A stretch of DNA of 64,000 bases from Bdellovibrionota bacterium (GCA_964202055.1 CAXNGS010000006.1:32426-96425); one strand, 5' to 3'. Counted from the first letter of the stretch, positions 10,368 to 59,259 are shown. The notes: generated by a model not told the origin, from the letters alone. Numbers and translations are program-made.

Positions 10368-10386
10368 GGGACTTTGGGGGGAATAA

Positions 10387-10788: not shown

Positions 10789-11119
10789 AAATCATCTGCT
10801 CATTAAACTGGCTGACATCGATCATAAGTTGATGAATCTATGGATCAACGAAGACGTCGAAATTAACGACGACGATCGTTGGGAGATATTTGTGGTGCTG
10901 CTCGAAACTCGAGTAGAAATTTTGAGTGTCTTTAAAGATGCCGGAATTGCGCTGACGGCCGAGCAGTGTGTGCCCCAGTGGCTGGAAAAAATGACCAACC
11001 ATCGCAAAGAATTTCGACTTCGGGAACTGCGCCAAATGGGCGAGCGATTGCGCCGTAATAAGAAAAAATACGAGGCTTATGAGGACGTGTCGGACCTTAA
11101 GAACGAAGGAAAAAAATAA
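10775..11119 (+). CDS. Hypothetical small helical protein in the position often held by FliT
   Basis: ATG 10775 overlaps the fliS end by 14 nt. Charged helical sequence with a basic tail. No family motif recognised. Confidence 0.4.
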   Translation: MKIDKNHLLIKLADIDHKLMNLWINEDVEINDDDRWEIFVVLLETRVEILSVFKDAGIALTAEQCVPQWLEKMTNHRKEFRLRELRQMGERLRRNKKKYEAYEDVSDLKNEGKK

Positions 11120-11887: not shown

Positions 11888-11892
11888 GGGGC

Positions 11893-12591
11893 ATGACCCT
11901 TTGGGTTCAAAACTTATTAGACGGGGTGACTCGAGCGAATCCCGATAGTTCGCTTGAGAGCTCTGGAGCCACTGCTTCTGATGCGATCATCGATTTAACG
12001 AATAGTGCTTTCCCTTTGCGTTGGCGCAGCCCCATTGAATGGGCACACAATGCAATCAAAGATTTACCGGCTTTTATGATCGATCACGCGGCCTGTGAAC
12101 GCAAAGTTTCAGCTACCTGCATGACCTTTGTCGTGAAGTATCCAGATCGTCCTGAATTTGTAGAGGCCATGATCCAAGTGGCTATCGAAGAAATGGAACA
12201 TTTTCAGCAGGTCTTTCGAATTTTGCGCTCTCGAAATTTGACCCTAGGGCCGGACACCAAGACTGAATATGTTAATCGCTTCTTGCAACTCAATCGCACG
12301 TCTCCAGAAGATCGATTTTTAGATCGAATGCTTTGCTTTGGAATCATTGAAGCTCGGGGCTGCGAGCGTTTTGCTTTGATCGGCGAGGCTTTGGCCCGAG
12401 AAAACCGTGAGCCGGAATTAAGCGCTTTCTACAAAGATTTGGCCCGCGAAGAAGCAAAGCATTTCGGTATATTTTTGCGATACGCCAAGACTTATTTTCC
12501 ATCGCCGGTTGTCGAGGCTCGGCTCCAAGAGTTGCTCGATCAAGAGTCTTTGATCATCAAAGAATTACCCTGGAGACATGCTCTACATTGA
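11893..12591 (+). CDS. miaE: tRNA-(ms2io6A)-hydroxylase MiaE (ferritin-like diiron)
   Basis: DHAACERKVSATCM, AIEEMEHFQQV, IIEARGCERFALI and LAREEAKHF give two ExxH diiron motifs in the MiaE arrangement. Confidence 0.8.
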   Translation: MTLWVQNLLDGVTRANPDSSLESSGATASDAIIDLTNSAFPLRWRSPIEWAHNAIKDLPAFMIDHAACERKVSATCMTFVVKYPDRPEFVEAMIQVAIEEMEHFQQVFRILRSRNLTLGPDTKTEYVNRFLQLNRTSPEDRFLDRMLCFGIIEARGCERFALIGEALARENREPELSAFYKDLAREEAKHFGIFLRYAKTYFPSPVVEARLQELLDQESLIIKELPWRHALH

Positions 12592-13825
12592 TTCGGGGAC
12601 GGCTGAGCGGCCGATTCCCATGGTCGGCGGCTCTAGGGCGTGGACTGATTCCAAATGGTCCAGCGCGATCGTGGTTCCTTTGCGGGCTGAAAATGGTGAG
12701 CGAGTCCTTCGGCTGATTTCGTCGCTTAGAGCCGCCCTTGAATTTCAAAAACCTGAGTTTCCCACTTTGTTAGTTTTGGTTTTAAATTCTTTGAAGTCAA
12801 AGCTTGAAGCTGAGGCTTTGCTTAATCAAGAATTGCGGCAAACGCTGAGCGGCTTGAAAGATTTGAACTTCGATATTGTTTTGTTGGATCACGCCCATGA
12901 GGGCCGCAGCTTCAATGAAAAATCCGGAGTTGGATTAGCTCGAAAAATTGGCTGCGATTTTGCGGCTGATTTAATCAAGAGTGGCCAGGTTCGAGATTCA
13001 TGGATTCGTTGCACCGATGCAGATGCTCAGGTGTCTCATAATTATCTCTCAGAAATTCCTGTCAAAAGTGGAGCTCTGATTTATCCCTTCCGCCATTCCT
13101 TTGATGCTCAGAATCCGGCTCAAGCTCGAGCCGCCCTTCTGTACGATGCCTATTTGCGATATCTGCGATTAGGAATGGTGGCCGCAAGATCCACGTTTGC
13201 CTATCACAGCATTGGGAGTTTGATTGCGGTTCACGCCGACAGTTATCGTGTGGCCCGCGGTTTCCCGGATTATCAGGCAGGGGAAGATTTTTACTTCTTA
13301 AATAAAATTCGCAAACTCGCACCGGTTCAATGGTGTGGTGATGTGGATCCGGTGATTCTTGAGGGACGGATTTCGAATCGTGTGCCCTTTGGAACCGGTC
13401 GATCGATTATAAAAATATTAAGCGAGGGTGAAAATTCTTGGAGTTTTTATCATCCCGAAAGTTTTCGTATCTTGGGCCAAGCTCTCGAGGCTCTCCAAGA
13501 AAGTCGTGGTGTTTTTAGCAGGGAAAAATCGCCTGAGTTCTATGATTTCTGTCAGTCCCGCAAGATGATCGAGAAGTTCGCCAACATTGCTCGACAGTGC
13601 AAAAGCCCAGCGCAATGGCAGTCGCGCTGCTTGGAATTGTTCGACGGCTTTGAACAGATGAAGTTCCTGCACTATTTACGCGACCACGGTCATCCTGCGC
13701 TCAATTGGGGCCAAGCGGCGAGTGAGTCTTGGTTTTTAGAATCAAAAATTCGTCAATTTTCTGGCGATTTAGCTGGGTGGCAGCAGTCTTTAGTCGCGCT
13801 CGATGAGTCGACGCCCTTCGTCTAA
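12578..13825 (+). CDS. GT-A fold (family 2-like) glycosyltransferase
   Basis: AIVVPLRAENGE, GVGLARKIGCDFA, DxD-type CTDADAQV, AGEDFYFLNKIR. Overlaps miaE by 14 nt. Confidence 0.55.
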   Translation: MLYIDSGTAERPIPMVGGSRAWTDSKWSSAIVVPLRAENGERVLRLISSLRAALEFQKPEFPTLLVLVLNSLKSKLEAEALLNQELRQTLSGLKDLNFDIVLLDHAHEGRSFNEKSGVGLARKIGCDFAADLIKSGQVRDSWIRCTDADAQVSHNYLSEIPVKSGALIYPFRHSFDAQNPAQARAALLYDAYLRYLRLGMVAARSTFAYHSIGSLIAVHADSYRVARGFPDYQAGEDFYFLNKIRKLAPVQWCGDVDPVILEGRISNRVPFGTGRSIIKILSEGENSWSFYHPESFRILGQALEALQESRGVFSREKSPEFYDFCQSRKMIEKFANIARQCKSPAQWQSRCLELFDGFEQMKFLHYLRDHGHPALNWGQAASESWFLESKIRQFSGDLAGWQQSLVALDESTPFV

Positions 13826-13908
13826 GAATTTTTTCATTTTCGACTCAACTTTATAAAAGCAACGTCCGATCTAACTCTAGAGCCAAAAGCTCATAAGGAG
13901 AGACAAGG

Positions 13909-14148
13909 ATGCTCGTTTTAACTAGAAAGATCGGTGAGTCGATATCGATTGATGACAATATCAAGATCACCGTTGTCCAAATCAAGGGCAAGCAGGTTCG
14001 GATTGGCATCGACGCTCCCAAAGAAACCAAAATTTATCGCGAAGAAGTTTACACCGCGATTCAAGACGAAAACCGCGCAGCGGTTGAATCGATGAAAACA
14101 GACTTTAAGAAAATTAAATCGGACAAATTCGGCAACACAGGAACTTAG
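13909..14148 (+). CDS. csrA: Carbon storage regulator CsrA (flagellar-type)
   Basis: MLVLTRKIGESISIDDNIKITVVQIKGKQVRIGIDAPKETKIYREEVY is near-canonical CsrA. SD AAGGAG lies upstream. Confidence 0.95.
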   Translation: MLVLTRKIGESISIDDNIKITVVQIKGKQVRIGIDAPKETKIYREEVYTAIQDENRAAVESMKTDFKKIKSDKFGNTGT

Positions 14149-14157
14149 ATCAAGAGC

Positions 14158-14204
14158 GATCCGCATGATGCGGATCCACTAACGGCACTAGGAAGGAGCC
14201 AGGT
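14158..14204 (+). promoter_or_regulatory. csrA-fliW intergenic hairpin plus GGA-GGA Shine-Dalgarno region (candidate CsrA binding/processing site)
   Basis: GATCCGCA-TGA-TGCGGATC perfect 8-bp stem (14158-14176). It is followed by ACTAGGAAGGAGCC, with GGA at 14191-14193 and 14195-14197, just upstream of fliW ATG 14205. Confidence 0.35.
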
Positions 14205-14753
14205 ATGCAGATCGAGACACTTAGATTTGGAACCATTAACTACTCACAAGAACATTTGATTCATTTTCGAGACGGAATGATTGGTCTCGCGAAGATGAAA
14301 GATTATCTGATTGTTGAATCGGCAAACTCGCCACTCATTCTATGGCTGCAATCGATTCAAGATGCCAAAGTCGCCTTTCCACTAGTCGAGCCCTATTTTT
14401 TCGGGCGAGATTACAAAATCACCATGAACGATGCTGAACGTTTGTCGCTAGGTTTAAATCCCGGCGAACGCAGCAAAGTGATGGTGATCCTGACGATCCC
14501 TAATCAAATTGAAAACATGACGGTCAACATGAAAGCACCGATTGTTTTCAACGTTGAAAAATCGGTGGGCACTCAGGTGGTGTTGCAAGATAAAAATTTC
14601 CAAGTCCGAACACCGGCCTACGAAATTTTTGCACGCGCCACTAACGCGATTGCTACCAATCACACTGATTCGGCCGCCCAAGAAGAATGGTTGCCGATTC
14701 GTTTGGGAGGAAGGGAACAGTCTGCTGAAAATTCAGCGGCCGTTGCCATCTAA
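14205..14753 (+). CDS. fliW: Flagellar assembly factor FliW (CsrA antagonist)
   Basis: FGTINYSQEHLIHFRDGMIGLAKMKDYLIVE...LILWLQSIQDAKVAFPLVEP and NMKAPIVFN are typical FliW blocks. Adjacent to csrA. Confidence 0.85.
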   Translation: MQIETLRFGTINYSQEHLIHFRDGMIGLAKMKDYLIVESANSPLILWLQSIQDAKVAFPLVEPYFFGRDYKITMNDAERLSLGLNPGERSKVMVILTIPNQIENMTVNMKAPIVFNVEKSVGTQVVLQDKNFQVRTPAYEIFARATNAIATNHTDSAAQEEWLPIRLGGREQSAENSAAVAI

Positions 14754-14757
14754 TCAC

Positions 14758-15270
14758 ATGAAAAACTTTGGGCGTGTATTTACGGTTCTGATCAGCCTTA
14801 GCGCAATGAACTCATTGGCTACGGGCATCAGCCGCGAGTATCGGGCCCTTGGCTTAGAATTGCACTCAGAAAACACATCTTTTGAAGCCATGGTCCAACA
14901 GCGGCAAAACGTCTCTCGCGGACCGGCATCGGTTGCCGGTAAATTTCGGGTCATTAGTGTTCGCCGAGAATTGGGATTAACTCGTCGAGCTGCGGAAGCG
15001 GCTCCCGTCGATATCATCATCAATGCAGGGGATGAAGCTGGATTGGATCCCGGAACGGTTTTGCGAGTCTTCCGAAAAATTTCAGTGATCGATCCCTATC
15101 AAGATAATTTGCAGCGAGAAATCGACATTCCTTTTGCGATTGTGAAAATAAAGCACTCGGACTCTGGAATTGCGATCGCGCGCATTGAGAAAATCGACAC
15201 AATTTCACAAGGGGTTTCTCTTGGCGTTCGCGGCGTGCTGATCGGCGATTTCGTCGGATTTCAGGAATAG
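14758..15270 (+). CDS. Hypothetical secreted protein
   Basis: ATG 14758, 5 nt after the fliW stop. Signal peptide MKNFGRVFTVLISLSAMNSLATG. The track ORF 14542.. is an extension overlapping fliW. Confidence 0.5.
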   Translation: MKNFGRVFTVLISLSAMNSLATGISREYRALGLELHSENTSFEAMVQQRQNVSRGPASVAGKFRVISVRRELGLTRRAAEAAPVDIIINAGDEAGLDPGTVLRVFRKISVIDPYQDNLQREIDIPFAIVKIKHSDSGIAIARIEKIDTISQGVSLGVRGVLIGDFVGFQE

Positions 15271-16012: not shown

Positions 16013-16164
16013 AAATATCTAATTAGTAAAAGAATTGGGGGGCCAAGAATTTGGACTCTTTCTGCCAAGTCCCAAGACTGGTCAAAAGTTCTCAAGATCG
16101 ACGCGCTAATTTCTTGTTGAGAGGGGGCCTTCTTGATAGACACCCGAACTGGCGGAGGCATTTG

Positions 16165-17091
16165 ATGAATTCCTTAAGCAATTCAAACCTTAAACGGCTG
16201 GTCGGTTCTTTTTTATGGGGCCTGATTTTCATGGTCGGGTGCTCTAAAAACAGTGCACCACTGGGCAGTGCTGATAATCCGGTAAAATTCTTTTTTGTCC
16301 CTTCGATTGATGCTCAAAGATTGGCCGACAAAGGACACTTGGTTGAGAAATACCTGAACGCTAACACTCCCTATGTTTATAAAATTGGAGTGCCGTCGAG
16401 TTACATCGCAGTCGTGGAATCATTCGGAACCAAGCGCGCTGACATTGCGACCCTCAACCCCTTTACTTATATATTGGCCAACGAAAAATACGGCGCCCAT
16501 GCCGTGATCACGCCCATTCGAGCGGGATCGGAAACCTATTCTGGGCAAATTGTGGTTCGCGCCGATAGTGGGATTAAAACGATTAAAGATCTGCAAGGAA
16601 AAAAATTCGCCTTTGTGGATCCCGTTTCAACCAGTGGATTTCTACTTCCTGGAAAATTAATCAAAGACGCTAATGTAACCTTGGGTGAAACCGTTTTTGC
16701 TCAACGCCACGACAATGTCATCAGCATGGTTTACCAAAAACAAGTCGACGCCGGTGCTACTTTTTACTCGCCGCCCGAGGATGGGAAAATTCAAGACGCT
16801 CGTCGCTTGGTTGTGACCCAATATCCGGACATCGAAAAGAAAGTTGTGGTTTTAACTCTGACTGATTCGATTCCTAATGATCCAATCGTGGTTCGCAAGG
16901 ACTTGCCTGTTGAAATTCGCGACACCACAGTCAAAGCGCTTCTGGCTTATATGCAAACTGAAGAGGGCAAGGCTGTTTTCTACGATCTTTATGGAATGAC
17001 CGGAATGGTGGCAAGTTCCGACGCTCGTTACGATGCGATCCGTAATGTGTTGACCGCTATGGGGAAATCCGCAGCGGAATTGGTTAAGTAA
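16165..17091 (+). CDS. phnD: Phosphonate/phosphite ABC transporter substrate-binding lipoprotein PhnD
   Basis: GGAGG at 16154 before ATG 16165. Lipobox MVGCSKN. FAFVDPVSTSGFLLP is a PhnD-type block. Followed by phnC and phnE. Confidence 0.8.
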   Translation: MNSLSNSNLKRLVGSFLWGLIFMVGCSKNSAPLGSADNPVKFFFVPSIDAQRLADKGHLVEKYLNANTPYVYKIGVPSSYIAVVESFGTKRADIATLNPFTYILANEKYGAHAVITPIRAGSETYSGQIVVRADSGIKTIKDLQGKKFAFVDPVSTSGFLLPGKLIKDANVTLGETVFAQRHDNVISMVYQKQVDAGATFYSPPEDGKIQDARRLVVTQYPDIEKKVVVLTLTDSIPNDPIVVRKDLPVEIRDTTVKALLAYMQTEEGKAVFYDLYGMTGMVASSDARYDAIRNVLTAMGKSAAELVK

Positions 17092-17118
17092 GCACTGATT
17101 TAAAAGGAATTCATAACA

Positions 17119-17907
17119 ATGGCTCAACAGGAAAATCTTTTAGAAGTTGTTGGTTTGAAGAAAACCTATCCTAATGGGGTGAAGGCGCTCAAAGGCGTTT
17201 CCTTCAACGTGAAAAAAGGCGAATTTTTGGTGATCATCGGGCTGAGTGGTTCGGGAAAATCAACGATGCTTCGCTGTTTGAATCGGCTCAACGATCCGGA
17301 CTTGGACACCGTCAAGATTCAATTTGAAGGCGTTAACTACGCGGCCGCTGATATCACTTCGGCTCAAGTCATGGGACTCAGGGCTCGAATTGGGATGGTG
17401 TTTCAGCACTTCAATTTAATTGATCGTCACAGCGTTTTGAGCAACGTTTTGATGGGCGGGTTGTCACGCAATTCGATTTTGAAAAGTCTTTTTGGAATTT
17501 GGAGCGCGGAAGAAAAAAACCGAGCGCTGCAACTTTTAGATTTGGTCGGTATCCGCGAAAAGGCCTACATTCGCGCGGGGCAACTTTCCGGCGGCCAACA
17601 GCAGCGAGTCGCGATAGCGCGGGCCTTGAATCAAAATCCGAAATTATTATTAGCCGACGAGCCGGTGGCAAGCTTGGATCCCGCGACTTGTCACACGGTC
17701 ATGGATTATTTGCAAAAAGTGAATCGAGAATTGGGCGTCACGATCATTTGCAATCTGCACTTTTTAAGTTTGGTTCGCCAATACGCCTCTCGAGTGATTG
17801 CTTTGAAGGCGGGAGAAATCATCTATGACGGGTCCCCCGATCAAATTGATGATCAGTGGTTTAAAAAGATCTTTGGCGAAAGCGCTAAAGACGTTCACAT
17901 TCGATAG
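17119..17907 (+). CDS. phnC: Phosphonate ABC transporter ATP-binding protein PhnC
   Basis: Walker A GLSGSGKST, signature LSGGQQQRVAIARAL, Walker B LLLADEP. Confidence 0.85.
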   Translation: MAQQENLLEVVGLKKTYPNGVKALKGVSFNVKKGEFLVIIGLSGSGKSTMLRCLNRLNDPDLDTVKIQFEGVNYAAADITSAQVMGLRARIGMVFQHFNLIDRHSVLSNVLMGGLSRNSILKSLFGIWSAEEKNRALQLLDLVGIREKAYIRAGQLSGGQQQRVAIARALNQNPKLLLADEPVASLDPATCHTVMDYLQKVNRELGVTIICNLHFLSLVRQYASRVIALKAGEIIYDGSPDQIDDQWFKKIFGESAKDVHIR

Positions 17908-17922
17908 GTTGGGAATGAAAAA

Positions 17923-18957
17923 ATGAAAAACTTTAATATTCGAAAACGTCTACTCGACGGTCTGAGTTTTGGATTTTTACTGGCCACTGCATATTTTTCC
18001 ATCTTCATGAAAACCCGCCAAGAACTTGAGGCTGGAATTTTCGAAGCTAGCTTAATGGCATTTTTGTTTTTTGCGATGGGAGCTTTGGCTAGCCTTTTAT
18101 TGGATCGCTCGGGTGTTCAAACTTTGGGCGGCCAAATTTTTCGCAGTTCACAAATCAGAGACCCTCAAGAGGCGACGCCATGGCACACCACTTTTTGGGG
18201 CCTTCAGTTAATTGTTACTTTTGCGGTTTTAGTAGCATCCGGAATTTTTGTGACCGAAGTTTCCATTCGCGAATTGATGTCGGAAGACGGATTCCAGGGC
18301 GCGGTGCGAATTTTCAAGGGCATCACTAGCCCCAATTTTGAAATTTTGCCCAAAGGAATTCTGGCGATCATTGAAACCATTTTCATTGCGTTGATCTCCA
18401 CCGTTTTTGCCGTGCCGGTAGCTTTTTTGCTGGCATTTTTCTCGGCAAAAAACCTGACTCGTGGAAGTTTCAAGGGTGCGGCTGTTTACACGTTGCTTCG
18501 CTCGCTTTCCAATATGACTCGCTCGATTGAGCCGATTATTTGGGCAATTATTTTTTCGGTTTGGGTTGGAATCGGACCCTTTGCGGGGGCGCTATCGCTC
18601 ATGCTTCATTCGATCGCTTCGCTCACCAAGCAATATTCAGAAATCATTGAGTGTGTGGACGATGGTCCGATCGAAGGCATTCGCTCGACCGGTGCCGGAA
18701 CTGTTCAAGTGGTTTGGTTTGCGGTCGTTCCGCAAATCATTTTGCCCTACGTATCGTTCACGATTTATCGCTGGGACATCAACGTTCGAATGGCCACAGT
18801 CATCGGATTGGTGGGCGGCGGCGGCATTGGCCAGTTGTTGATGCAATATCAGGGCTTGGCTAAGTGGCCCGAAGTCGGATGCTTGGTGTTATTGATCACG
18901 ATCGTGGTGTGGTCGATGGATGCGGCATCGTCTTACATTCGCGAGGCTTTGAAGTGA
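17923..18957 (+). CDS. phnE: Phosphonate ABC transporter permease PhnE (with N-terminal extension)
   Basis: YRWDINVRMATVIGLVGGGGIGQLL is the characteristic PhnE C-terminal block. Multiple TM helices. Confidence 0.8.
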   Translation: MKNFNIRKRLLDGLSFGFLLATAYFSIFMKTRQELEAGIFEASLMAFLFFAMGALASLLLDRSGVQTLGGQIFRSSQIRDPQEATPWHTTFWGLQLIVTFAVLVASGIFVTEVSIRELMSEDGFQGAVRIFKGITSPNFEILPKGILAIIETIFIALISTVFAVPVAFLLAFFSAKNLTRGSFKGAAVYTLLRSLSNMTRSIEPIIWAIIFSVWVGIGPFAGALSLMLHSIASLTKQYSEIIECVDDGPIEGIRSTGAGTVQVVWFAVVPQIILPYVSFTIYRWDINVRMATVIGLVGGGGIGQLLMQYQGLAKWPEVGCLVLLITIVVWSMDAASSYIREALK

Positions 18958-19808
18958 GCCATCGCCCGATCAAGAATTTTTTCCAAGAAACCCATCATCC
19001 CTTGCTAAAAAGTTCGGAGCTGAATTGGATTTCTTCTGGGGATTTACTCAGCAAAATCGCGGCTCGATCTGAAACTTCTTTGAATGCCCAAAAGCCCAAA
19101 GCTATTATTTTTGATTTGGATTCAACGCTTTTTTGCACGGCCACTCGTCTTAAATCAATTTTGATTAGATACATTGCGTCTCATTCTACTGATCATGCCG
19201 CTATGGATCCTGCATGGATTAAGTTGGCGCATCAATTGGAGTCGATACATCAAAATTATAGTGTGCCTGCTACATTGTTTCAGATGATGAAGCGGTTTCA
19301 CCCAGAAGATCAGGCCAAATCATTGGTTAAGGAATTTTGGCCAGGCTTCGAAGAGTATTGGAAAGAAGAGTTTTTCTTAAGTCGCAATATGACGGTGGAT
19401 CCGCCTTATGAAGGCTCGGTTGAATTTGTGAAAAAAACCGTGGAGATGGGTTATTCACCGATTTATTTAACCGGCAGAGACTACGGGCGAGGGATGGATG
19501 GAACCAAACACGCTTTGCGGCGTTGGGATTATCCATTGGGCAGCCATTCCCACACTATTTTGAAACCCGATCGAGCGATGAAGGACATGGACTTTAAACA
19601 AGGGGTGGCCCAAGTTTTAAACTCCCGCTTTGACGTACATTTTGTGATCGATAACGAACCAGAAAATTTGGCGATGTTCGCCGTGAAAATTCCTAGTTCA
19701 GAAATTGTTTTCTTTCATTCGATCATGAGCCATCGATGGTCAGCTCCAGATTTGAAGGCTGATTTAAGTGGCCGAAAAATTCTAGGGCTCAAGTCTTTTG
19801 CTGACTAA
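18954..19808 (+). CDS. HAD-superfamily phosphatase-like protein, translationally coupled to phnE
   Basis: In-frame GTG at 18954 overlaps the phnE stop (GTGA). Motif I IIFDLDSTLF, motif II LTGR, acidic motif VIDNEPEN. The track ORF 18864.. is an upstream extension inside phnE. Confidence 0.55.
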   Translation: MSHRPIKNFFQETHHPLLKSSELNWISSGDLLSKIAARSETSLNAQKPKAIIFDLDSTLFCTATRLKSILIRYIASHSTDHAAMDPAWIKLAHQLESIHQNYSVPATLFQMMKRFHPEDQAKSLVKEFWPGFEEYWKEEFFLSRNMTVDPPYEGSVEFVKKTVEMGYSPIYLTGRDYGRGMDGTKHALRRWDYPLGSHSHTILKPDRAMKDMDFKQGVAQVLNSRFDVHFVIDNEPENLAMFAVKIPSSEIVFFHSIMSHRWSAPDLKADLSGRKILGLKSFAD

Positions 19809-19813
19809 ATTTT

Positions 19814-20155
19814 TTATTGAATCTTCGGACAGCAATAACTGTTTTCGCCATAACCCAAGCGTGGATCTAATTTCTTACAGCCACTTAGTTTGGCTTGCTT
19901 CATTCGCGCCGGGGAAACCACTTCGCAATCATCAGTGAGCGTGGCTTCGGGTGCCGTGGGCCCATCGATCGGAGTCGTCAACTTTTCGTCTGCGCGGACC
20001 TGGCGAATTTTTTCATAATCCCATTTTTTTTCGGGACTGGCGGGCGGCGGCGCTTCTTTTTCTGCTTCTGCGGAAACTTTTTTGTTCGCACAGGCCGACA
20101 AAAAGCTGACCGTTAGAATCATCCCTAACAAAGCGAGTGACGATTTTCGTTTCAT
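19814..20155 (-). CDS. Small lipoprotein, Cys-containing C-terminus
   Basis: ATG 20155 gives MKRKSSLALLGMILTVSFLSAC (lipobox). Pro/Glu/Lys-rich linker. Four further Cys. Confidence 0.5.
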   Translation of the reverse strand: MKRKSSLALLGMILTVSFLSACANKKVSAEAEKEAPPPASPEKKWDYEKIRQVRADEKLTTPIDGPTAPEATLTDDCEVVSPARMKQAKLSGCKKLDPRLGYGENSYCCPKIQ

Positions 20156-20215
20156 CGAATTCTTTTTCAAAAGCTGTTACTCCCTAGGAGACGATGTTAA
20201 ATTAGAGCTGCTCGT

Positions 20216-22645
20216 ATGTCATTGATTCAAGCCGTCAGACTCTTGGACTTACAAAAAGTAATGGAGATCAATGCTCCTGGTGACCCGCGCCTTTGGGATG
20301 TCTTGAACGATACTTTGGGTGGAATCACAGTTCAGTTGATGAGTTTGATTGGGCTCGAGTGGGAGCAAGTCCCCGATCGAGTTCCCGGAATTGATGATTG
20401 GACTGATTGGCTTTCGCTAGAAGGCAATTTGGGAATCTCGGTTTCGCAAAGCGTGGATGCTTATTGTTTGCAAAAACGTCGCCGTGGATTCAAAAATCAT
20501 CCGCTTGAACATTTGATTTATGATTGGATGAAAATCCAGGGTTTCCCTCTGCCAAAGCGACTTTGGGTTGCTGATCATTACGTGATCACCGGGGGCGGCG
20601 ACACGGCGCGGGCTTTTGAAAGTATGCGCGGACTCATGGCTTTGGGATCTAAATCCGGAATTTGGGATGAAAACACCGAAGACTGTCGTTTGATGACTCC
20701 CTCTGATCCGCTTTCCTGGCCCTATCATTACGAAGCTAAACTCGAAGGGCTTTCGCTGAATAAAAAGTATTTTATTTCCTGTTTAAATTCCGAGCCAAAT
20801 ATTTTTACATCCCGATACGCGCTTTCGGAAAATAATGGACGAAGCACTCCGTCTTCTACAGTCACCGAATCAGTTTATGATTTGTGGCAATCTTTTCATC
20901 AGCCGCTAATTTTCGAAGAAAATCCCATGGCGCTGTTAGGCCCAGAGCATTTTGTGGTGGCACTTCCAAAATCAGCTCAGTTTGAGAAAATTGGCGCGGA
21001 CTTGCGTGATTTTGTTCAAGAAGGCGCAGCACTGATGGATCGATACCCCGGGATCATCCGCTATCGTGAAGCCGCGGCGACTTTATTGCATCTCGAAAAT
21101 TTCCCGGATTTTTGCTCGAGCTTGACTCCGATAGAGATGGGAAGCCGTGGCGATAAAAAACTTTATGCCCTAAGCCCATGGAGTTTGACGAATCCGGTCG
21201 CCACTCGTCGGGTGGAGCATTTTTGTGCGCAACACAAAGGCCGCGATATATTCGCACCAACATTTTTGCCGGGCTCCGCCGACTGGATTTCTTTATTGCT
21301 TAAAGCGCTATCGTCGACCGCAGGGTGGACCATGGGCGAATTGGCGGCTTTTGAATTGATCAAATGGAATGCCTCGCGCTTGGCTTCAAGTTCACTGCTT
21401 TTGTTTTGGAGTGAGCTAGATTTATCGGCCATCAAAAATATTTGTGAACAATGTGGTTTGGATGTTTTGGCTCTTGGATCTTCAAATAATTCTGGAAATT
21501 TTAACGTAGGCGAGCAAACAATTCCGGTGGTTCAAATCCCATTCGAGGAAGTGCGCGCCGAATTTGGAAAAAGCAATTTGGTCAACGCTTCTTGGTTTTA
21601 CAAGGATCAGAAATCTCCGACCTACGGATTTGAAAAAGCGGGAATTTTTCCGGATCGCTTTTTAAAGCGAATGACTCAAGTGGGTGTGAAGGTAGAAATT
21701 CAGAAAGAAATATCTTGGGGTTTGAGCTCATCTCCGGTTCATCGAGATCACATGATGAAATACAAAGTCAATCAACCGATTTCCTATATCCGTTGGAGCG
21801 AGGGTGAAAATCATTGGATCGATGCGGTGGCTTCAGTCGATGGGGTGGGTGAATTTGATCCAAAAGCTTTGGGTGAGTGGGCTTGTGATTTGGCCTTGCG
21901 CGGATTGATTTGTCGCGGAGTGGATCCTCACTCGGCCATTTCGGCTCAGGCCTGGTTCAATGATCCTAATTCGACCGATTTGCCCGATCCTGCCGAGCGC
22001 TTTGGAGCTTTTTACTTGGCCAATCTTGGATTGAAGGAAGCGTTTCAATCATATGGCCTTCATTTTTCAGGAGCGTCTTTTTCAGGAAGCTTCTCTAAAT
22101 CGCGGCCCTTTCAGCAAGAGCTGATTGTTCGGCTTCGCGCTAAAATTCCAGCCAGCACCACCAGTGTTTTTCCAGGATTTCGAATGGCTGGGGAAATTCT
22201 TTATGTCTTGGGTCCCAAGCCCGCATTTATGGACGCAGGAACTCGATTGCTTCCCCACTTTAAAGTGGTCAGCAATCATGTCAGTCGTTTGAATCTTGAA
22301 CTGCAAAAAGAACTCTACACTTCGATTTATAATTTTGTGCGTGAAGGGGTCGTGACGGTGGCTCGGCCGGTTGGACAAAGCGGAGCTTTAGGCGCGATTT
22401 TGGAAATGAGTTTGTGGGGAAATATCGGTGCCACCATCAAACCCGGAGTGAACACCATGGAGCTTTTTAGTGGAGCGCCCGGTCGAGTTGTGGTGGGTGT
22501 TTTGCCCCAAGAAGCCAAAAAATTTGAAGGAGCCATTCGCCAAGAAATGGTGGCTCACGTCGGGGAATCGGCAGGCGATCGAATCTTTGGCCAGCCCATG
22601 AATTTTTATCGAAATTCAGAGGGGGCGAAAAATGTCGGCCCCTAA
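20216..22645 (+). CDS. PurL-like (FGAM synthase II / AIR-synthase-fold) protein with divergent active-site motifs
   Basis: The C-terminal half is collinear with PurL. FDPKALGEWACDLALRGLICRGVDPHSAISAQAWFNDPN aligns with the DPYxGAxxAVAEAxRNLxxxGAxPLAxTDxLNFGxP block. GASFSGSF aligns with GNVSxYNE. VTVARPVGQSGALGAILEM aligns with AHDxSDGGLxVALAEM. Confidence 0.5.
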   Translation: MSLIQAVRLLDLQKVMEINAPGDPRLWDVLNDTLGGITVQLMSLIGLEWEQVPDRVPGIDDWTDWLSLEGNLGISVSQSVDAYCLQKRRRGFKNHPLEHLIYDWMKIQGFPLPKRLWVADHYVITGGGDTARAFESMRGLMALGSKSGIWDENTEDCRLMTPSDPLSWPYHYEAKLEGLSLNKKYFISCLNSEPNIFTSRYALSENNGRSTPSSTVTESVYDLWQSFHQPLIFEENPMALLGPEHFVVALPKSAQFEKIGADLRDFVQEGAALMDRYPGIIRYREAAATLLHLENFPDFCSSLTPIEMGSRGDKKLYALSPWSLTNPVATRRVEHFCAQHKGRDIFAPTFLPGSADWISLLLKALSSTAGWTMGELAAFELIKWNASRLASSSLLLFWSELDLSAIKNICEQCGLDVLALGSSNNSGNFNVGEQTIPVVQIPFEEVRAEFGKSNLVNASWFYKDQKSPTYGFEKAGIFPDRFLKRMTQVGVKVEIQKEISWGLSSSPVHRDHMMKYKVNQPISYIRWSEGENHWIDAVASVDGVGEFDPKALGEWACDLALRGLICRGVDPHSAISAQAWFNDPNSTDLPDPAERFGAFYLANLGLKEAFQSYGLHFSGASFSGSFSKSRPFQQELIVRLRAKIPASTTSVFPGFRMAGEILYVLGPKPAFMDAGTRLLPHFKVVSNHVSRLNLELQKELYTSIYNFVREGVVTVARPVGQSGALGAILEMSLWGNIGATIKPGVNTMELFSGAPGRVVVGVLPQEAKKFEGAIRQEMVAHVGESAGDRIFGQPMNFYRNSEGAKNVGP

Positions 22646-23285
22646 AATTGCCTACATCGCTCAAGGTCCAGGTTTTTCAGGAGAGCACGATTTAGTCGGG
22701 CTCTTAGAAGCCCGCGGTTTTTCGGTTGAATTTTTTTCACTCAATCATGGCTTTAATAAAGTTGATCCGGGGCGATTAGCCGCGGCTGATTTGGTTTTGC
22801 TTCGTGGACCCTGGCGATTGTCATTAGAAGAAGCGGTGCTTTCGCGGATGCTGGCTCATCAACTGAAAAAAATCATCGGCGGTCGCGATGTTAACGATCG
22901 CCAGAGAATGGTGGGAATCGGACGGGGCGCGATGGTTTTAATCAAATCATTGCCCGGTAGATTTCCCTCGGATTTGACCTTCACTTGGTCAGAAGCTTTT
23001 AAAGACAAGGTGCCTTGGATTCGAACTTATTTGCGCGGCACAGACTCAAATTTTTCATACACCTTGTCAGAATCGTTGCCAGTTTTTGATGATCCTTCCG
23101 AACGTTTACAGCCCTGGATCGGCTCCGAGCATGGAACTTGCGGATGGCACGTGGACAGCCGCATTTTCTTTTCTTTCTTAGATCCCTTTGGATTTCGAGA
23201 TCCTCGGCAATTGCGCTCATATGGTTTTGAAGATCTTTCGACCGCGGTAAAAATCGATAAAGTTTTGGACTCGGTGCTGGTGTGA
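22632..23285 (+). CDS. PurQ-like class I glutamine-amidotransferase-fold protein lacking the Cys-His-Glu triad
   Basis: Collinear with PurQ: KIAYIAQGPGFSGEHD, ADLVLLRGPW. The nucleophile position reads GIGRGAM instead of G-x-C-N-G-F-Q. The HPE position reads LDPFGF. Overlaps the upstream gene by 14 nt. Confidence 0.5.
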   Translation: MSAPKIAYIAQGPGFSGEHDLVGLLEARGFSVEFFSLNHGFNKVDPGRLAAADLVLLRGPWRLSLEEAVLSRMLAHQLKKIIGGRDVNDRQRMVGIGRGAMVLIKSLPGRFPSDLTFTWSEAFKDKVPWIRTYLRGTDSNFSYTLSESLPVFDDPSERLQPWIGSEHGTCGWHVDSRIFFSFLDPFGFRDPRQLRSYGFEDLSTAVKIDKVLDSVLV

Positions 23286-23291
23286 TTTGGT

Positions 23292-24857
23292 GTGAAGAAG
23301 AATGTGCAGATGAGTGAGCAGATGAGTAGCGAAGAAAATCATCGAAGTGACCAAGCCAATAAATTTCAGATCGAAATTCTGACTTTGCTCAACGAAGGTG
23401 TTTTGGGTAACGAAGACTTGATCGAGGATTACGTAGAAATTTATTCAAGTCTACGCGAAGAGTTATCGAAAACAGAGAATCAAAACGATTCACTTTCGCA
23501 GCGTCGGATTTATCATCGATTTTTAAAAGACTGGCATCGGCGCATGAAGATTCCTGGGTCGGAATGGTCAAAGCTTTTGGTCCCCCGGGCCTTGTTTTCT
23601 TTGGGGTGGAATTATGAAAAGAGCGCCACTGCCTTGGGGTTGAGTGATTCAAAAGTTCGCTTTTGGGCCCTTCGCGCGATCCAAGATAAAGTTGGAAACT
23701 TCCCCGCTCACTTGGATAAGGGCTGCGCTCGCAATGACTTGTACATGGTCGATGTTTTGATGGGCCAACAGTGGGGCGACTCACTAAAAATTTATCGGCC
23801 TCAAGATTTTCAAGAGCATCTTAAACTTTGCTCGCGCTGTTCTGGGATTTTCAAATCCGCCAAAGAAGCCGTTTTGTTTTGGAAAAATGCGGCCATTCGC
23901 ACTGTGCCTGCTGAAGTTGAAATGATTTTGAAATCGCAACCCACCACTTATGGGCGTGGGATGTCGGCTTTTTATCACCGCTTGGGTTGGTTTAATAAAT
24001 TAGGACTTCAAATTTTTGCATCAGCCGCGGTGTTGGCTGCGGTTTTGTTAGTGCCTTTTTATCAAAAAATAGACGTTGGAAGCTTTTTTAGAAAAAGCGG
24101 GCCAATGACTCTGGCCCAAAACAACACAGAACATTTGCCAGAATCCGACGAGCCCGTTTCAACGGAATACGCTGCCAAGAAATCTGGAGATCCTCTGGAA
24201 GGAATGATCGCGGCTAACGATGCGGGAAATGACGAAGTCAATTCAGAGGCAGCAGACACTTCAACTGAATTCAAGGCGCCCTTAATCCCAGAAAGTCCCA
24301 CGACTCCGCTCGTTGCGGAGAATAAAAAACCAACGCTTCCCTTGCTTACGGTACCGGAAGTGAAGGCTCCCCTTGTTGTTCCCGCACCGACTGTTGTGCC
24401 GGTGCCGGTTGTGGTTGCCAAAATTCCAGTGACGCCAACGAAGCCTAAGCCCCCTGAAGTTGCGGTGGCGTCAAAACCGGAGCCGACATTGCTCCCGCCT
24501 AATCCATTGGATCTTGAAAAACCCGCCCGTGGAAGCGAGGCGGTGGCTTTAAGCGGTAAACATTATTTCTATCGATGGGGCGCGCGGTCAGATGATCCTG
24601 ATGTGGTGTCGCCGACCATTAAAAAGATTTTAGAAAAATACAAAGCCATGAAAGCCGGAGAGTTGGATTTAGGCGCGGAATATCGGGGCGGCCGTTATTT
24701 TCACTTTAACGTCACTCAAGCAGATTACGAAGCCGTAGTTTCCGAAGTACGCGAAGTTCAATTGGTTGATTTTAGTGCCACTCGCACGCTGTCGGACCGC
24801 AAAGACGAAAACGGAAAAATCCGCATCGTCTTTTGGGTCGGTCCGACTAAATTATAA
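23292..24857 (+). CDS. Single-pass membrane protein: sigma-70 region-4-like HTH + zf-HC2 anti-sigma motif + TM + Pro-rich linker + C-terminal domain
   Basis: LFSLGWNYEKSATALGLSDSKVRFWALRAIQDKV (region-4-like HTH). HLKLCSRC (H-x3-C-x2-C). TM LGLQIFASAAVLAAVLLVPFY. Pro/Val/Ala-rich stretch of about 110 aa. The start may be ATG 23310. Confidence 0.5.
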   Translation: MKKNVQMSEQMSSEENHRSDQANKFQIEILTLLNEGVLGNEDLIEDYVEIYSSLREELSKTENQNDSLSQRRIYHRFLKDWHRRMKIPGSEWSKLLVPRALFSLGWNYEKSATALGLSDSKVRFWALRAIQDKVGNFPAHLDKGCARNDLYMVDVLMGQQWGDSLKIYRPQDFQEHLKLCSRCSGIFKSAKEAVLFWKNAAIRTVPAEVEMILKSQPTTYGRGMSAFYHRLGWFNKLGLQIFASAAVLAAVLLVPFYQKIDVGSFFRKSGPMTLAQNNTEHLPESDEPVSTEYAAKKSGDPLEGMIAANDAGNDEVNSEAADTSTEFKAPLIPESPTTPLVAENKKPTLPLLTVPEVKAPLVVPAPTVVPVPVVVAKIPVTPTKPKPPEVAVASKPEPTLLPPNPLDLEKPARGSEAVALSGKHYFYRWGARSDDPDVVSPTIKKILEKYKAMKAGELDLGAEYRGGRYFHFNVTQADYEAVVSEVREVQLVDFSATRTLSDRKDENGKIRIVFWVGPTKL

Positions 24858-59197: not shown

Positions 59198-59259
59198 GGC
59201 CTCAAAATTAAAGCGCTGCGCCTATATAAAGTGATCAACTCGCACTATCATCGCCCCCA

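What the first reader, a model, noticed from the sequence alone, without database searches (positions are those of the whole stretch)
20216..23285. Coupled PurL-like / PurQ-like pair in which the alignable catalytic residues are replaced (candidate pseudoenzyme module)
The 809-aa ORF keeps PurL block order in its C-terminal half. The acidic/Gly-rich nucleotide- and metal-binding blocks are altered, however: AHDxSDGGL becomes ARPVGQSGAL, and GNVSxYNE becomes GASFSGSF. The N-terminal half is barely recognisable. The downstream ORF overlaps it by 14 nt and is collinear with the glutaminase PurQ. Its nucleophile elbow reads GIGRGAM (no Cys) and the His-Pro-Glu block reads LDPFGF. All three residues of the class I amidotransferase triad therefore appear lost. 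No purS or other pur gene is adjacent. The pair is followed 7 nt later by a membrane sigma/anti-sigma-like protein. A retained two-subunit scaffold without glutaminase chemistry suggests a new binding, sensing or regulatory role. A non-glutamine-dependent reaction is an alternative.
Basis: partly seen in the sequence, partly recalled or inferred. Interest (0 to 1): 0.7.

Follow-up and report, generated by a model that had tools for sequence, protein, structure and literature searches.

The report
Catalytically dead PurL/PurQ-like gene pair
Two overlapping genes in a predatory-type bacterium (Bdellovibrionota) descend from the purine-synthesis enzyme FGAR amidotransferase but have lost its catalytic residues; they are conserved with a membrane signalling-type protein, so they look like a bacterial pseudoenzyme module of unknown role.

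Summary
ORFs 20216-22645 (809 aa) and 22632-23285 (217 aa) overlap by 14 nt, and the quoted motifs are present.

The large protein is a true PurL homologue. Profile-profile E is 3e-34 over about 800 columns against large/PurSL-type PurL. Domains B1, A2 and B2 are each significant on their own. The A1 catalytic subdomain is unrecognisable and about 125 aa short. The catalytic loop and both catalytic His motifs are missing. The Mg/nucleotide ligands of both sites are replaced family-wide.

The small protein has no conserved Cys or His, so no triad is possible in any register. Its PurQ ancestry is only suggestive (hhalign P 0.006; N-half 6e-4; position after PurL, as in large PurL).

About 22 clusters of full-length relatives exist, all unnamed and all named ones from Bdellovibrionota MAGs. 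In 15 related loci the arrangement is the same wherever the contig extends far enough: intact HAD phosphatase, large, small (start/stop coupled), ZAS-like membrane protein, aspS. Conservation is concentrated in B2.

Best reading: a non-catalytic PurSL/PurQ-derived complex with a new binding or signalling role. I could not test whether a canonical purL exists elsewhere in the genome, and structure prediction failed.

The parts
20216..22645 (+). 809-aa PurSL-like protein (degenerate large-type FGAM synthetase lacking a glutaminase domain)
   Evidence: ORF. NCBIfam PurL E 1.1e-11, far below the curated cut-off. hhalign of the family against lgPurL/PurSL: E 3e-34 over 798 columns. About 22 full-length family clusters exist.
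20216..20647 (+). aa 1-144: possible PurS-like N-terminal domain
   Evidence: aa 80-136 align to E. coli PurL 70-126 with mean confidence 7.3 in the full-length alignment. Tested alone, P is 1.1e-3 in the same register, which is marginal.
20648..21181 (+). aa 145-322: linker plus eroded A1 remnant. SEHCxHK and ETHNHP motifs are absent and the catalytic C-loop is deleted
   Evidence: About 90 aa stand opposite about 220 aa of A1, with alignment confidence <=3.7, and E. coli 448-469 is skipped. Only 2 of 44 canonical near-invariant A1 columns are kept and 19 fall in deletions. A1 tested alone is not significant, P 0.013.
21182..21616 (+). aa 323-467: B1 (AIRS_C-like) domain with the Asp/GAGG nucleotide motif lost
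   Evidence: hhalign on B1 alone: E 9e-10. Canonical (H/T)D-x-GAGG aligns to (V/L)-x-G-x-(Q/E)-D-W at confidence 8-9.
21632..22099 (+). aa 473-628: A2 domain with the auxiliary-site ligands lost
   Evidence: hhalign on A2 alone: E 1.4e-14. E718 and N722 become variable and SGKDSM is deleted or variable, while the structural D717/R721 pair is kept as D558/R562.
22100..22642 (+). aa 629-809: B2 domain, the most conserved part of the family. Canonical HD becomes RP
   Evidence: hhalign on B2 alone: E 1.9e-26. H883-D884 become R717-P718 in 20 of 22 members. 44 positions are >=85% conserved (24%), against 3-6% in the other domains. Pfam AIRS_C matches 17 of 22 members.
22619..22634 (+). GAGGGGG Shine-Dalgarno-like site plus the ATG of the small ORF, inside the 3' end of the large ORF (translational coupling)
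   Evidence: Sequence read directly. Start/stop overlap or a gap of <=3 nt is kept in all 15 related loci that contain the junction.
22632..23285 (+). 217-aa probable PurQ-derived (class I amidotransferase-like) protein without a catalytic triad
   Evidence: The 19-member family has only G12, G97, R98, W119, W172, D184, Q193 and G198 invariant, with no Cys or His. hhalign against 115 PurQ sequences: P 0.0064. Score 25.4 against column shuffles 14.0+-2.5, with 0 of 200 reaching it. N-half P 6e-4, with GRGA opposite CNGF. The rank-1 Foldseek hit is PurQ 3d54_D, but E is 0.06 and the model is poor. No Pfam, NCBIfam or PDB sequence hit.
23292..24857 (+). 521-aa membrane protein: HTH-like segment, ZAS-type C-x30-H-x3-C-x2-C, one TM helix, Pro-rich linker and a conserved ~100-aa C-terminal (presumably periplasmic) domain
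   Evidence: Alignment A6 has C145, H176, C180 and C183 invariant, plus a conserved C-terminal block. Weak PDB hit to anti-sigma RsiW, E 0.011, over the HxxxCxxC region. No Pfam family. It follows the small ORF in the 9 related loci where a full-length copy could be read; a truncated 253-aa ORF holds that position in L010 and none was identified in high-GC L008.
18864..19808 (+). HAD-superfamily phosphatase (class IIIB-like) with intact catalytic motifs, conserved immediately upstream of the pair. True start is probably downstream of 18864
   Evidence: Pfam Acid_phosphat_B E 3.9e-8. DxDxT, YLTGR, K and DNEPEN are invariant in 12 loci. It is present upstream in every locus that has upstream sequence.
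19814..20170 (-). 118-aa predicted lipoprotein between the HAD gene and the pair
   Evidence: ORF with an LSAC lipobox. A minus-strand gene of similar size sits at the same place in L001 and on the JGI contig.

Best explanation
The two ORFs are the products of an ancient split large-type FGAR amidotransferase. One gene is a PurSL-type gene (PurS-like N-domain, linker, A1-B1-A2-B2 synthetase). It is followed by a PurQ-type gene in the position that the glutaminase domain occupies in large PurL.

In this Bdellovibrionota family both proteins have lost the chemistry.
- The A1 subdomain with both catalytic His motifs and the catalytic loop is eroded or deleted.
- The Asp/Gly-rich Mg-nucleotide ligands of both the active and the auxiliary site are replaced.
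- The small protein has neither the Cys-His-Glu triad nor the oxyanion motif.

What selection keeps is the fold of B1-A2-B2, an unusually conserved B2 surface rich in invariant charged residues, and strict co-translation of the two proteins.

Inference: they still form a PurL-PurQ-like heterocomplex that acts as a non-catalytic binding, sensing or scaffold module. It probably works with the co-transcribed ZAS-type transmembrane protein, and possibly with the neighbouring intact HAD phosphatase.

Shown: homology, loss of catalytic columns, conservation, synteny and start/stop coupling. Inferred: complex formation, absence of any enzymatic activity, and a signalling role.
For: Homology.
- NCBIfam PurL E 1.1e-11.
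- hhalign E 3e-34 over 798 columns and E 2.3e-33 with E. coli PurL included.
- B1, A2 and B2 tested separately: 9e-10, 1.4e-14 and 1.9e-26.
- The nearest canonical hits are PurSL-type proteins of ~950-1030 aa.

Loss of chemistry.
- The H216 column is variable, ETHNHP (H296) is deleted and C-loop 448-469 is absent.
- D502/GAGG, E718, N722, K776/D777 and H883/D884 are all replaced.
- Only 2/44, 0/3, 5/31 and 6/22 canonical near-invariant columns are kept in A1, C-loop, B1 and A2.
- No H, D, E or K is >=90% conserved in aa 1-465.
- The small family has no conserved Cys or His.

Selection and function.
- About 22 full-length 50%-identity clusters.
- Intact ORFs in 15 loci spanning GC 0.41-0.63.
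- 24% of B2 positions are >=85% conserved.
- The pair evolves about twice as fast as the adjacent AspRS (26-32% against 55-65% identity), as expected after release from catalytic constraint.

Coupling and context.
- A 14-, 4- or 1-nt overlap, or a gap of <=3 nt, in every locus.
- HAD upstream and ZAS-like membrane protein then aspS downstream, conserved.

PurQ ancestry of the small ORF.
Against: - No structure. Both AlphaFold2 models were unusable (pLDDT 41.6 and 31.6), so fold retention of A1 and of the small protein is not shown.
- PurQ homology rests on P values of about 1e-3 to 1e-2 and on context. HMMER-level searches find nothing.
- The many invariant polar residues in B2 (R656, E660, D673, S686, N687, R717, E730, E749, R757, E771) could equally mark a new catalytic site.
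- It is not known whether these genomes carry a canonical purL/purQ.
- No ECF sigma gene lies next to the ZAS-like gene. Its partnership with the pair is inferred from operon structure only.
Confidence: 0.6

Rival explanations
1. Neo-enzyme. The PurM-type fold is kept and a new active site, built from the invariant B2/A2 residues, catalyses a different, glutamine-independent reaction. This could lie in a short pathway with the adjacent intact HAD phosphatase and the PhnD-type ABC importer.
For: - B2 carries 44 positions that are >=85% conserved, including many invariant charged or polar residues. That is more than canonical PurL keeps there, 10 columns.
- The HAD phosphatase with intact DxDxT, T, K and DNEPEN motifs is always upstream.
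- PurM-superfamily members catalyse diverse ATP-dependent reactions (established knowledge).
Against: - Every Asp/Glu/Asn ligand that binds Mg-ATP or Mg-ADP in PurL is replaced in both sites.
- The Gly-rich GAGG loop is lost in B1.
- The central A1/A2 barrel that forms the substrate cleft is half eroded.
- The pair evolves fast outside B2.
Confidence: 0.22
2. The small ORF is not PurQ-derived. It is an unrelated alpha/beta protein that happens to be coupled to the degenerate PurL homologue, and the collinearity with PurQ is fold-level analogy or chance.
For: - No Pfam, NCBIfam or PDB sequence hit for any of the 19 members.
- hhalign probability is only 5.9% for the full length and 28.6% for the N-half.
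- The C-terminal half is not significant, P 0.12.
- As single sequences most members score no better than decoy ORFs from the window.
- The Foldseek hit has TM 0.27 on a poor model.
Against: - For one comparison specified in advance, P is 0.006 (full length) and 6e-4 (N-half), end to end and in the expected register. GPGF lies opposite GxGxN, RGPW opposite PGGF, and GRGA opposite CNGF.
- W119...P128-W129 lies opposite the canonical RW...SPW.
- 0 of 200 column shuffles reach the real score.
- PurQ of the T. maritima PurLQS complex is the rank-1 Foldseek hit among 350,542 chains.
- The gene sits exactly where the glutaminase domain follows the synthetase in large PurL, which the large ORF aligns to as far as residue ~991.
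Confidence: 0.2
3. Divergent but functional housekeeping FGAR amidotransferase: the organism's only purL/purQ.
For: - No other PurL or PurQ homologue in the 64-kb window, its 20 kb of flanks, or 232 kb of related loci.
- The rest of the genome could not be searched.
Against: - The NCBIfam PurL score is 43.7 bits against a cut-off of 648.
- Catalytic His motifs, the C-loop, Mg ligands and the triad are all missing family-wide.
- The family is confined to one phylum and annotated only as hypothetical.
- Its identity is about half that of the adjacent AspRS, whereas real PurL is highly conserved.
- B. bacteriovorus, from the same phylum, is reported to have complete de novo nucleotide synthesis (PMC7529429). 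That implies canonical enzymes exist in the phylum.
Confidence: 0.04
4. Decaying pseudogenes or mis-called ORFs.
For: None beyond the loss of catalytic residues.
Against: Full-length intact ORFs of constant size occur in 15 loci and about 22 clusters, down to 19-26% identity, with invariant motifs and preserved start/stop coupling.
Confidence: 0.01

Closest known systems
Large-type / PurSL-type FGAR amidotransferase (PurL; E. coli/Salmonella lgPurL, PDB 1T3T; PurSL + PurQ split forms, e.g. in Patescibacteria)
   Same: - Same domain order: N-domain, linker, A1-B1-A2-B2, then the glutaminase as the next polypeptide.
- B1, A2 and B2 are each significantly homologous.
- The nearest canonical hits are PurSL-type proteins.
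   Different: - A1 is about 125 aa shorter and unrecognisable.
- The C-loop, SEHCxHK, ETHNHP, D502/GAGG, E718, N722, GKDSM and H883-D884 are lost.
- The score is far below the family cut-off.
- Conservation has shifted to B2.
- It lies in an operon with a membrane ZAS-like protein instead of pur genes.
PurQ / glutaminase domain of PurL (Pfam GATase_5; T. maritima PurLQS, PDB 3D54)
   Same: - Similar size, and a position directly after the synthetase.
- Collinear N-terminal beta-alpha-beta pattern and an elbow-like G-x-G-R-G-A motif.
- Weak profile and Foldseek similarity.
   Different: - Cys becomes Gly and Asn becomes Arg at the elbow.
- PGGFSYGD becomes RGPW.
- HGEG, NPNGS and MPHPE are absent.
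- No conserved Cys or His anywhere.
- Not detected by the Pfam model.
Gammaherpesvirus vGAT / ORF75 / BNRF1 tegument proteins (pseudo-FGARAT; NCBIfam TIGR01739)
   Same: These are PurL/PFAS homologues that have lost the catalytic residues and act as pseudoenzymes through protein-protein interactions (PMC7605207). TIGR01739 gives a weak hit, E 4e-4.
   Different: - They are viral, single-chain, about 1,200-1,300 aa and eukaryote-derived.
- The family here is bacterial, split into two chains, has a different erosion pattern and a different genomic context.
- There is no evidence here of recruitment of a canonical PFAS.
Zinc-binding anti-sigma factors (ZAS: RsrA, RsiW, ChrR)
   Same: The third gene carries an invariant C-x30-H-x3-C-x2-C followed by a single TM helix and an extracytoplasmic domain. 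It has a weak hit to RsiW.
   Different: - There is no adjacent ECF sigma gene.
- An extra ~140-aa N-terminal region contains an HTH-like segment.
- The Pfam zf-HC2 model is not matched.
- The operon partners are PurL/PurQ-derived proteins.

Membership tests
PurL, FGAM synthase subunit II (NCBIfam PRK01213 / TIGR01736) | Whole-protein score above the curated equivalog cut-off | tested here: not met
   43.7 bits against a cut-off of 648, and 38 against 525.75.
PurL, FGAM synthase subunit II (NCBIfam PRK01213 / TIGR01736) | Internally duplicated PurM-type A1-B1-A2-B2 architecture | tested here: inconclusive
   B1 (9e-10), A2 (1.4e-14) and B2 (1.9e-26) are present. A1 is not recognisable (P 0.013) and is about half the normal length.
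PurL, FGAM synthase subunit II (NCBIfam PRK01213 / TIGR01736) | Catalytic His residues (St/Ec H216 in SEHCxHK; H296 in ETHNHP) and the catalytic C-loop (448-469) | tested here: not met
   The H216 column is variable, ETHNHP falls in a deletion and the C-loop is skipped. No His is >=90% conserved in aa 1-465. Alignment confidence is low in A1, but the absence of any conserved His does not depend on register.
PurL, FGAM synthase subunit II (NCBIfam PRK01213 / TIGR01736) | Mg-nucleotide ligands of the active site (B1 Asp plus GAGG) and of the auxiliary site (E718, N722, K776/D777, D884) | tested here: not met
   All are replaced at alignment confidence 8-9.
PurM superfamily / AIRS_C domain (Pfam PF02769) | Match to the AIRS_C model | tested here: inconclusive
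   The window protein scores 19.3 bits against a gathering score of 23.1. 17 of 22 family members match at E<=0.01, best 1.3e-8. hhalign on B2 gives E 1.9e-26. Homology is clear, but this protein is below the formal Pfam threshold.
PurQ / class I (triad) glutamine amidotransferase (Pfam GATase_5) | Match to the family model | tested here: not met
   No hit at E<=10 for any of the 19 members. My own PurQ HMM finds nothing in the window or the loci.
PurQ / class I (triad) glutamine amidotransferase (Pfam GATase_5) | Remote homology of the fold and sequence profile | tested here: inconclusive
   hhalign P 0.0064 for the full length and 6e-4 for the N-half. 0 of 200 shuffles reach the score. The top Foldseek hit is PurQ 3d54_D at E 0.06 on a model with pLDDT 41.6.
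PurQ / class I (triad) glutamine amidotransferase (Pfam GATase_5) | Cys-His-Glu triad and the oxyanion PGGF(S)YGD motif | tested here: not met
   The only invariant residues are G12, G97, R98, W119, W172, D184, Q193 and G198. The elbow reads G-R-G-A and the oxyanion motif reads R-G-P-W.
Herpesvirus v-FGAM-synthase / vGAT (TIGR01739) | Score above the family cut-off | tested here: not met
   18.4 bits against 716.1. This is an analogue, not a family member.
ZAS-type anti-sigma factor (third gene) | C...H-x3-C-x2-C zinc motif upstream of a TM helix | tested here: met
   C145, H176, C180 and C183 are invariant in 10 sequences, followed by a hydrophobic segment.
ZAS-type anti-sigma factor (third gene) | Model match (zf-HC2) and a cognate ECF sigma gene adjacent | tested here: not met
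   zf-HC2 matches 1 of 10 members, at E 0.29. RsiW gives E 0.011. No sigma gene is adjacent in the window or the related loci.
HAD-superfamily phosphatase (upstream gene) | Motifs I-IV (DxDxT, S/T, K, acidic pair) | tested here: met
   FDLDSTL, YLTGR, KP and DNEPEN are invariant in 12 loci. Pfam Acid_phosphat_B E 3.9e-8.

The most novel reading that the evidence does not exclude
This would be a Bdellovibrionota-wide signalling device. A catalytically dead PurSL/PurQ complex serves as the cytoplasmic ligand receptor (for a purine intermediate or nucleotide) or as an adaptor of a ZAS-type transmembrane protein. The device would couple the supply of prey-derived phosphorylated nucleosides to gene expression. 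The PhnD-type ABC importer and the intact class-IIIB HAD phosphatase next door would handle those nucleosides. It would be a bacterial counterpart of the herpesviral vGAT pseudoenzymes.
Probability: 0.15. Interest if true: 0.8.

Novelty: new variant of a known kind. Interest (0 to 1): 0.62.

Why it matters
Pseudoenzymes derived from FGAR amidotransferase are so far described only in gammaherpesviruses (PMC7605207). A text search of the held library for bacterial PurL-like or PurQ-like pseudoenzymes found nothing relevant. All database members of this family are 'hypothetical protein'.

Here all three parts of a central purine enzyme complex (PurS-like domain, PurL, probable PurQ) appear to have been kept as a scaffold while the chemistry was discarded. 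The constraint has moved to one domain, B2. The genes have become wired to a membrane-spanning anti-sigma-like protein in a whole phylum of mostly predatory bacteria.

If confirmed, this would give a tractable bacterial model for how a multi-subunit metabolic enzyme is turned into a binding or signalling module. It would also give a new phylum-specific marker operon for Bdellovibrionota physiology.

Tried and rejected
- AlphaFold2 on both proteins, using the shallow alignments available at that stage (3 and 6 sequences), gave unusable models: pLDDT 31.6 and 41.6. I ran Foldseek on the small model anyway and treat the result only as a weak hint.
- Pfam, NCBIfam and PDB sequence/profile searches with the small protein, its 6- and 19-member alignments, and each member individually gave no amidotransferase hit.
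- The first word-indexed homologue searches found only 3 and 6 relatives. The exhaustive HMMER representative search was needed to reveal the ~22-cluster family.
- The genome-contig scan found one species representative, an uncultured Bacteriovoracaceae MAG. Its search patterns came from the N-terminus of the close relatives, so distant members were probably missed.
- I looked for canonical purL/purQ in the window, in 10-kb flanks on each side and in 232 kb of related loci.
- PADLOC defence models gave no hit for any of the five genes, so I rejected a defence-system reading.
- Single-sequence hhalign of small-family members against PurQ, compared with 54 decoy ORFs from the window, separates only a few members (L011 at P 0.0012, L016 at 0.0069). 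I therefore do not claim proven homology.
- I considered other PurM-superfamily members (PurM, HypE, SelD, ThiL) and rejected them. The match covers two tandem PurM-like units plus the PurL-specific order, and the best named hits are all PurL.

Full report
**1. Observation**

The window contains the ORFs as described: 20216-22645 (+, 809 aa), 22632-23285 (+, 217 aa) and 23292-24857 (+, 521 aa).
- The first two overlap by 14 nt. A GAGGGGG Shine-Dalgarno-like site lies 6 nt before the second ATG, inside the end of the first ORF.
- The third ORF starts 6 nt after the second stop.
- Base composition is uniform across the region, GC 0.45-0.49, so there is no sign of a foreign island.

**2. The large protein is a real but degenerate PurL homologue**

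Standard libraries see it only weakly.
- Pfam AIRS_C: E 1.4e-3, below the gathering score.
- NCBIfam PurL PRK01213: E 1.1e-11, but 43.7 bits against a cut-off of 648.
- Word-indexed searches found only two relatives at 58% identity.

The exhaustive HMMER search of 1.84 billion representatives showed a wider family.
- About 22 full-length clusters of 790-843 aa, with E from 1e-160 to 1e-54.
- Then a sharp drop to canonical PurL proteins (E >= 6e-14) that match only aa ~553-800.

I compared a 22-member family alignment (A3) with alignments of those canonical proteins.
- hhalign probability 99.9%, E 3e-34 over 798 columns against large/PurSL-type PurL.
- E 2e-27 over 633 columns against small PurL.
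- E 2.3e-33 when E. coli PurL is included for numbering.

Tested domain by domain:

| Domain | hhalign result |
|---|---|
| B1 | 9e-10 |
| A2 | 1.4e-14 |
| B2 | 1.9e-26 |
| N-terminal (PurS-like) domain | P 1.1e-3 (marginal) |
| A1 | P 0.013 (not recognisable) |

Residue mapping onto E. coli PurL:

| Window protein (aa) | E. coli PurL | Region |
|---|---|---|
| 80-136 | 70-126 | N-domain |
| 234-322 | 280-442 | A1; about 90 aa where ~160-220 are expected |
| (none) | 448-469 | catalytic C-loop, skipped |
| 323-467 | 471-625 | B1 |
| 473-628 | 627-785 | A2 |
| 629-808 | 793-991 | B2 |

The protein therefore ends where the glutaminase domain of large PurL would begin. The nearest canonical relatives are PurSL-type proteins of ~950-1030 aa, for example from Patescibacteria, which pair with separate ~266-aa PurQ proteins.

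**3. Catalytic columns of the large protein**

I used E. coli/Salmonella numbering. I verified it on the E. coli sequence: H216 in SEHCRHK, H296 in ETHNHP, D884 in HDRSDGG, then C1135, H1260 and E1262.
- The H216 column is variable in the family.
- The ETHNHP block lies in a deletion.
- R317-D318 is not kept.
- The B1 motif (H/T)D-x-GAGG becomes (V/L)-x-G-x-(Q/E)-D-W.
- In the auxiliary site, E718 and N722 are variable and SGKDSM is deleted or variable.
- H883-D884 become R717-P718 in 20 of 22 members.

Canonical columns that are >=85% conserved, and how many the family keeps:

| Domain | Kept / canonical |
|---|---|
| A1 | 2 of 44 (19 fall in deletions) |
| C-loop | 0 of 3 |
| B1 | 5 of 31 |
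| A2 | 6 of 22 |
| B2 | 7 of 10 (mostly Gly) |

Independently of any register, no His, Asp, Glu or Lys is >=90% conserved in aa 1-465 of the family.

However, they belong to the A2/B2 auxiliary (structural-ADP) site described for Salmonella PurL (PMC3815217; PMC7124931). The conclusion that the enzyme is dead is still right, because the true active site is lost even more thoroughly.

**4. Where the selective constraint lies**

Conservation within the family is concentrated in B2. There, 44 positions (24%) are >=85% conserved, against 3-6% in the other domains. They include R656, E660, D673, S686, N687, Q697, Y701, R717, E730, E749, R757, K768, E771 and E777. The short B1-A2 connector (KSPTYGFEKAxxFPD) is also conserved.

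At divergences where the neighbouring AspRS is 55-65% identical, the other genes are much less conserved:

| Protein | Identity to the window copy |
|---|---|
| AspRS | 55-65% |
| HAD | 32-41% |
| Large protein | 26-32% |
| Third protein | 24-30% (full-length matches) |
| Small protein | 21-32% |

The genes are therefore maintained but evolve fast outside one domain. That is what one expects of a scaffold or binding protein rather than a housekeeping enzyme.

**5. The small protein**

No library recognises it. I collected 19 diverse members from the related loci.
- The family keeps GPGF, (L)RGPW-S-x-EE, G-R-G-A, W119, P128-W129, G-W172, S-x-V-D184 and Q193-L-x-x-(F/Y)-G-Y-E-D-L.
- The only invariant residues are G12, G97, R98, W119, W172, D184, Q193 and G198.
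- No Cys or His is conserved. The GTCGWH of the window protein is confined to its close relatives. A Cys-His-Glu triad is therefore excluded in any alignment.

Evidence on PurQ ancestry:
- Against an alignment of 115 canonical PurQ and glutaminase domains, hhalign gives P 0.0064 and probability 5.9%.
- The real score of 25.4 exceeds all 200 column shuffles (14.0 +- 2.5). The reversed alignment scores 10.7.
- The N-terminal half alone gives P 6e-4, end to end. GPGF lies opposite GxGxN, RGPW opposite PGGF, and G97-R98 opposite the Cys-Asn of the nucleophile elbow.
- The C-terminal half is not significant, but W119...PW129 falls opposite the canonical RW...SPW.
- As single sequences only a few members beat the best of 54 decoy ORFs.
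- Pfam finds no amidotransferase in any member.
- Foldseek with the low-confidence model ranks PurQ of the T. maritima PurLQS complex (3d54_D) first of 350,542 chains, followed by other class I amidotransferase-like folds. However, E is 0.06 and TM is 0.27.

I also weigh its position directly after a protein that aligns with large PurL up to the start of the glutaminase domain. Taking all this together, I rate PurQ ancestry at about 0.8, not proven.

**6. Family, distribution and context**

- Named members are all 'hypothetical protein' from Bdellovibrionota or Bdellovibrionales MAGs. Some fragments are called 'FGAM synthase-like enzyme'.
- The one GTDB species representative found is an uncultured Bacteriovoracaceae MAG.
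- The window itself is part of a 506-kb ENA metagenome contig.

In the 15 related loci (GC 0.41-0.63) the arrangement is the same wherever sequence is available:
- HAD-type phosphatase;
- in the close relatives, a small minus-strand lipoprotein gene;
- large gene;
- small gene;
- third gene;
- aspS on the opposite strand.

The large/small junction, counting the window with the 15 loci, is a 4-nt overlap in 10 cases, a 14-nt overlap in 2, a 1-nt overlap in 2, and a 2-3-nt gap in 2.

The HAD protein keeps all four catalytic motifs. In the window and its close relatives it ends a PhnD/PhnC/PhnE-like ABC transporter operon.

The third protein has, in order:
- a helix-turn-helix-like segment;
- an invariant C145-x30-H176-x3-C180-x2-C183, the spacing of zinc-binding anti-sigma factors, with a weak RsiW hit at E 0.011;
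- one TM helix;
- a Pro-rich linker;
- a conserved ~100-aa C-terminal domain with no known relatives.

No ECF sigma gene is adjacent. No PADLOC defence model matches any of these genes.

**7. How it most likely works**

Shown:
- descent from a PurSL + (probable) PurQ enzyme;
- loss of the catalytic apparatus;
- purifying selection focused on B2;
- strict start/stop coupling;
- conserved operon partners.

Inferred:
- the two proteins still assemble like PurL and PurQ;
- the complex has no FGAR-amidotransferase, glutaminase or ATP-dependent activity;
- it acts through binding, of a ligand in the remodelled A2/B2 cleft or of a protein on the B2 surface;
- it acts together with the ZAS-like transmembrane protein.

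I put 0.6 on this pseudoenzyme-complex reading. The rivals are:
- about 0.2 on a neo-enzyme with a new B2-centred active site;
- 0.04 on a divergent housekeeping enzyme;
- about 0.01 on decay or artefact.

The possibility that the small protein is unrelated to PurQ (about 0.2) is partly independent of these.

**8. Comparison with what is known**

The pair works like, and descends from, FGAR amidotransferase, but fails every catalytic membership criterion (see the membership table).

The closest functional analogue is the gammaherpesvirus vGAT/ORF75 family. These are PFAS homologues without catalytic residues that act by protein-protein interaction (PMC7605207). They are unrelated in lineage and architecture.

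A text search of the held library for PurL-like or PurQ-like homologues, paralogues or pseudo-glutaminases returned one unrelated paper. A comparative-genomics paper on Bdellovibrionota lineage-specific families does not mention purine or amidotransferase terms.

B. bacteriovorus is reported to have complete de novo nucleotide synthesis (PMC7529429). Canonical enzymes therefore exist in the phylum. I could not check this for the genomes that carry this family.

**9. Limits**

- There are no usable structure models.
- The alignment in A1 is of low confidence.
- PurQ homology is suggestive only.
- There was no whole-genome check for canonical pur genes.
- There are no expression or interaction data.

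**10. Verdict**

It is a new variant of a known kind: a bacterial, two-chain, PurSL/PurQ-derived pseudoenzyme operon. Interest is about 0.6.

Noticed in passing
window 23292-24857: The third gene of the operon encodes a membrane protein. It has an invariant ZAS-type C-x30-H-x3-C-x2-C motif, an upstream HTH-like segment, one TM helix, a Pro-rich linker and a conserved ~100-aa C-terminal domain (FYRWGA...GGRYFHF...RIVFWVGP) with no Pfam or PDB relatives. No ECF sigma gene is adjacent.
   Followed up: partly
window 18864-19808: A HAD-superfamily (class IIIB acid-phosphatase-like) gene with all catalytic motifs intact lies directly upstream of the pair in every related locus that has upstream sequence. 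It may be a functional partner of the module.
   Followed up: partly
window 16051-18957: A PhnD-like binding protein, an ABC ATPase and a PhnE-like permease (phosphonate/NMT1-type ABC importer) run into the HAD gene. The same order occurs in close relatives. In distant loci the transporter genes are rearranged but still nearby.
   Followed up: partly
L010 6257-7018: In one distant locus the ORF in the third-gene position is only 253 aa and runs into aspS, so it is too short to hold the whole protein. I did not check which domains it keeps.
   Followed up: no
window 39834-42512, 42509-44065, 52785-55097: Three long ORFs (892, 518 and 770 aa) have no Pfam match at E<=1e-5.
   Followed up: no
window 57354-63835 and L018: This is a sulfate-activation and sulfotransfer neighbourhood. 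It holds CysN-like GTPase, PAPS-reductase-family and APS-kinase genes, two PLD/endonuclease-phosphatase-type genes and an ABC exporter. Sulfotransferase and glycosyltransferase genes lie just beyond the window end.
   Followed up: no
window 8997-15270 and L019: A flagellar/CsrA-FliW block (FliD, FliS, FliW) lies within the window. A type IV pilus assembly cluster (PilM, PilN, PilO, PilP, secretin, prepilin peptidase) lies just beyond the window's low-coordinate end. This fits a motile Bdellovibrionota-type organism.
   Followed up: no
proteins P0038, P0042, P0293 (not in the window): The closest canonical relatives are PurSL-type proteins (~950-1030 aa; PurS-like domain fused to PurL, no glutaminase), for example in Patescibacteria. 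They pair with unusually long (~266 aa) stand-alone PurQ proteins, which makes them a split form of large PurL.
   Followed up: partly
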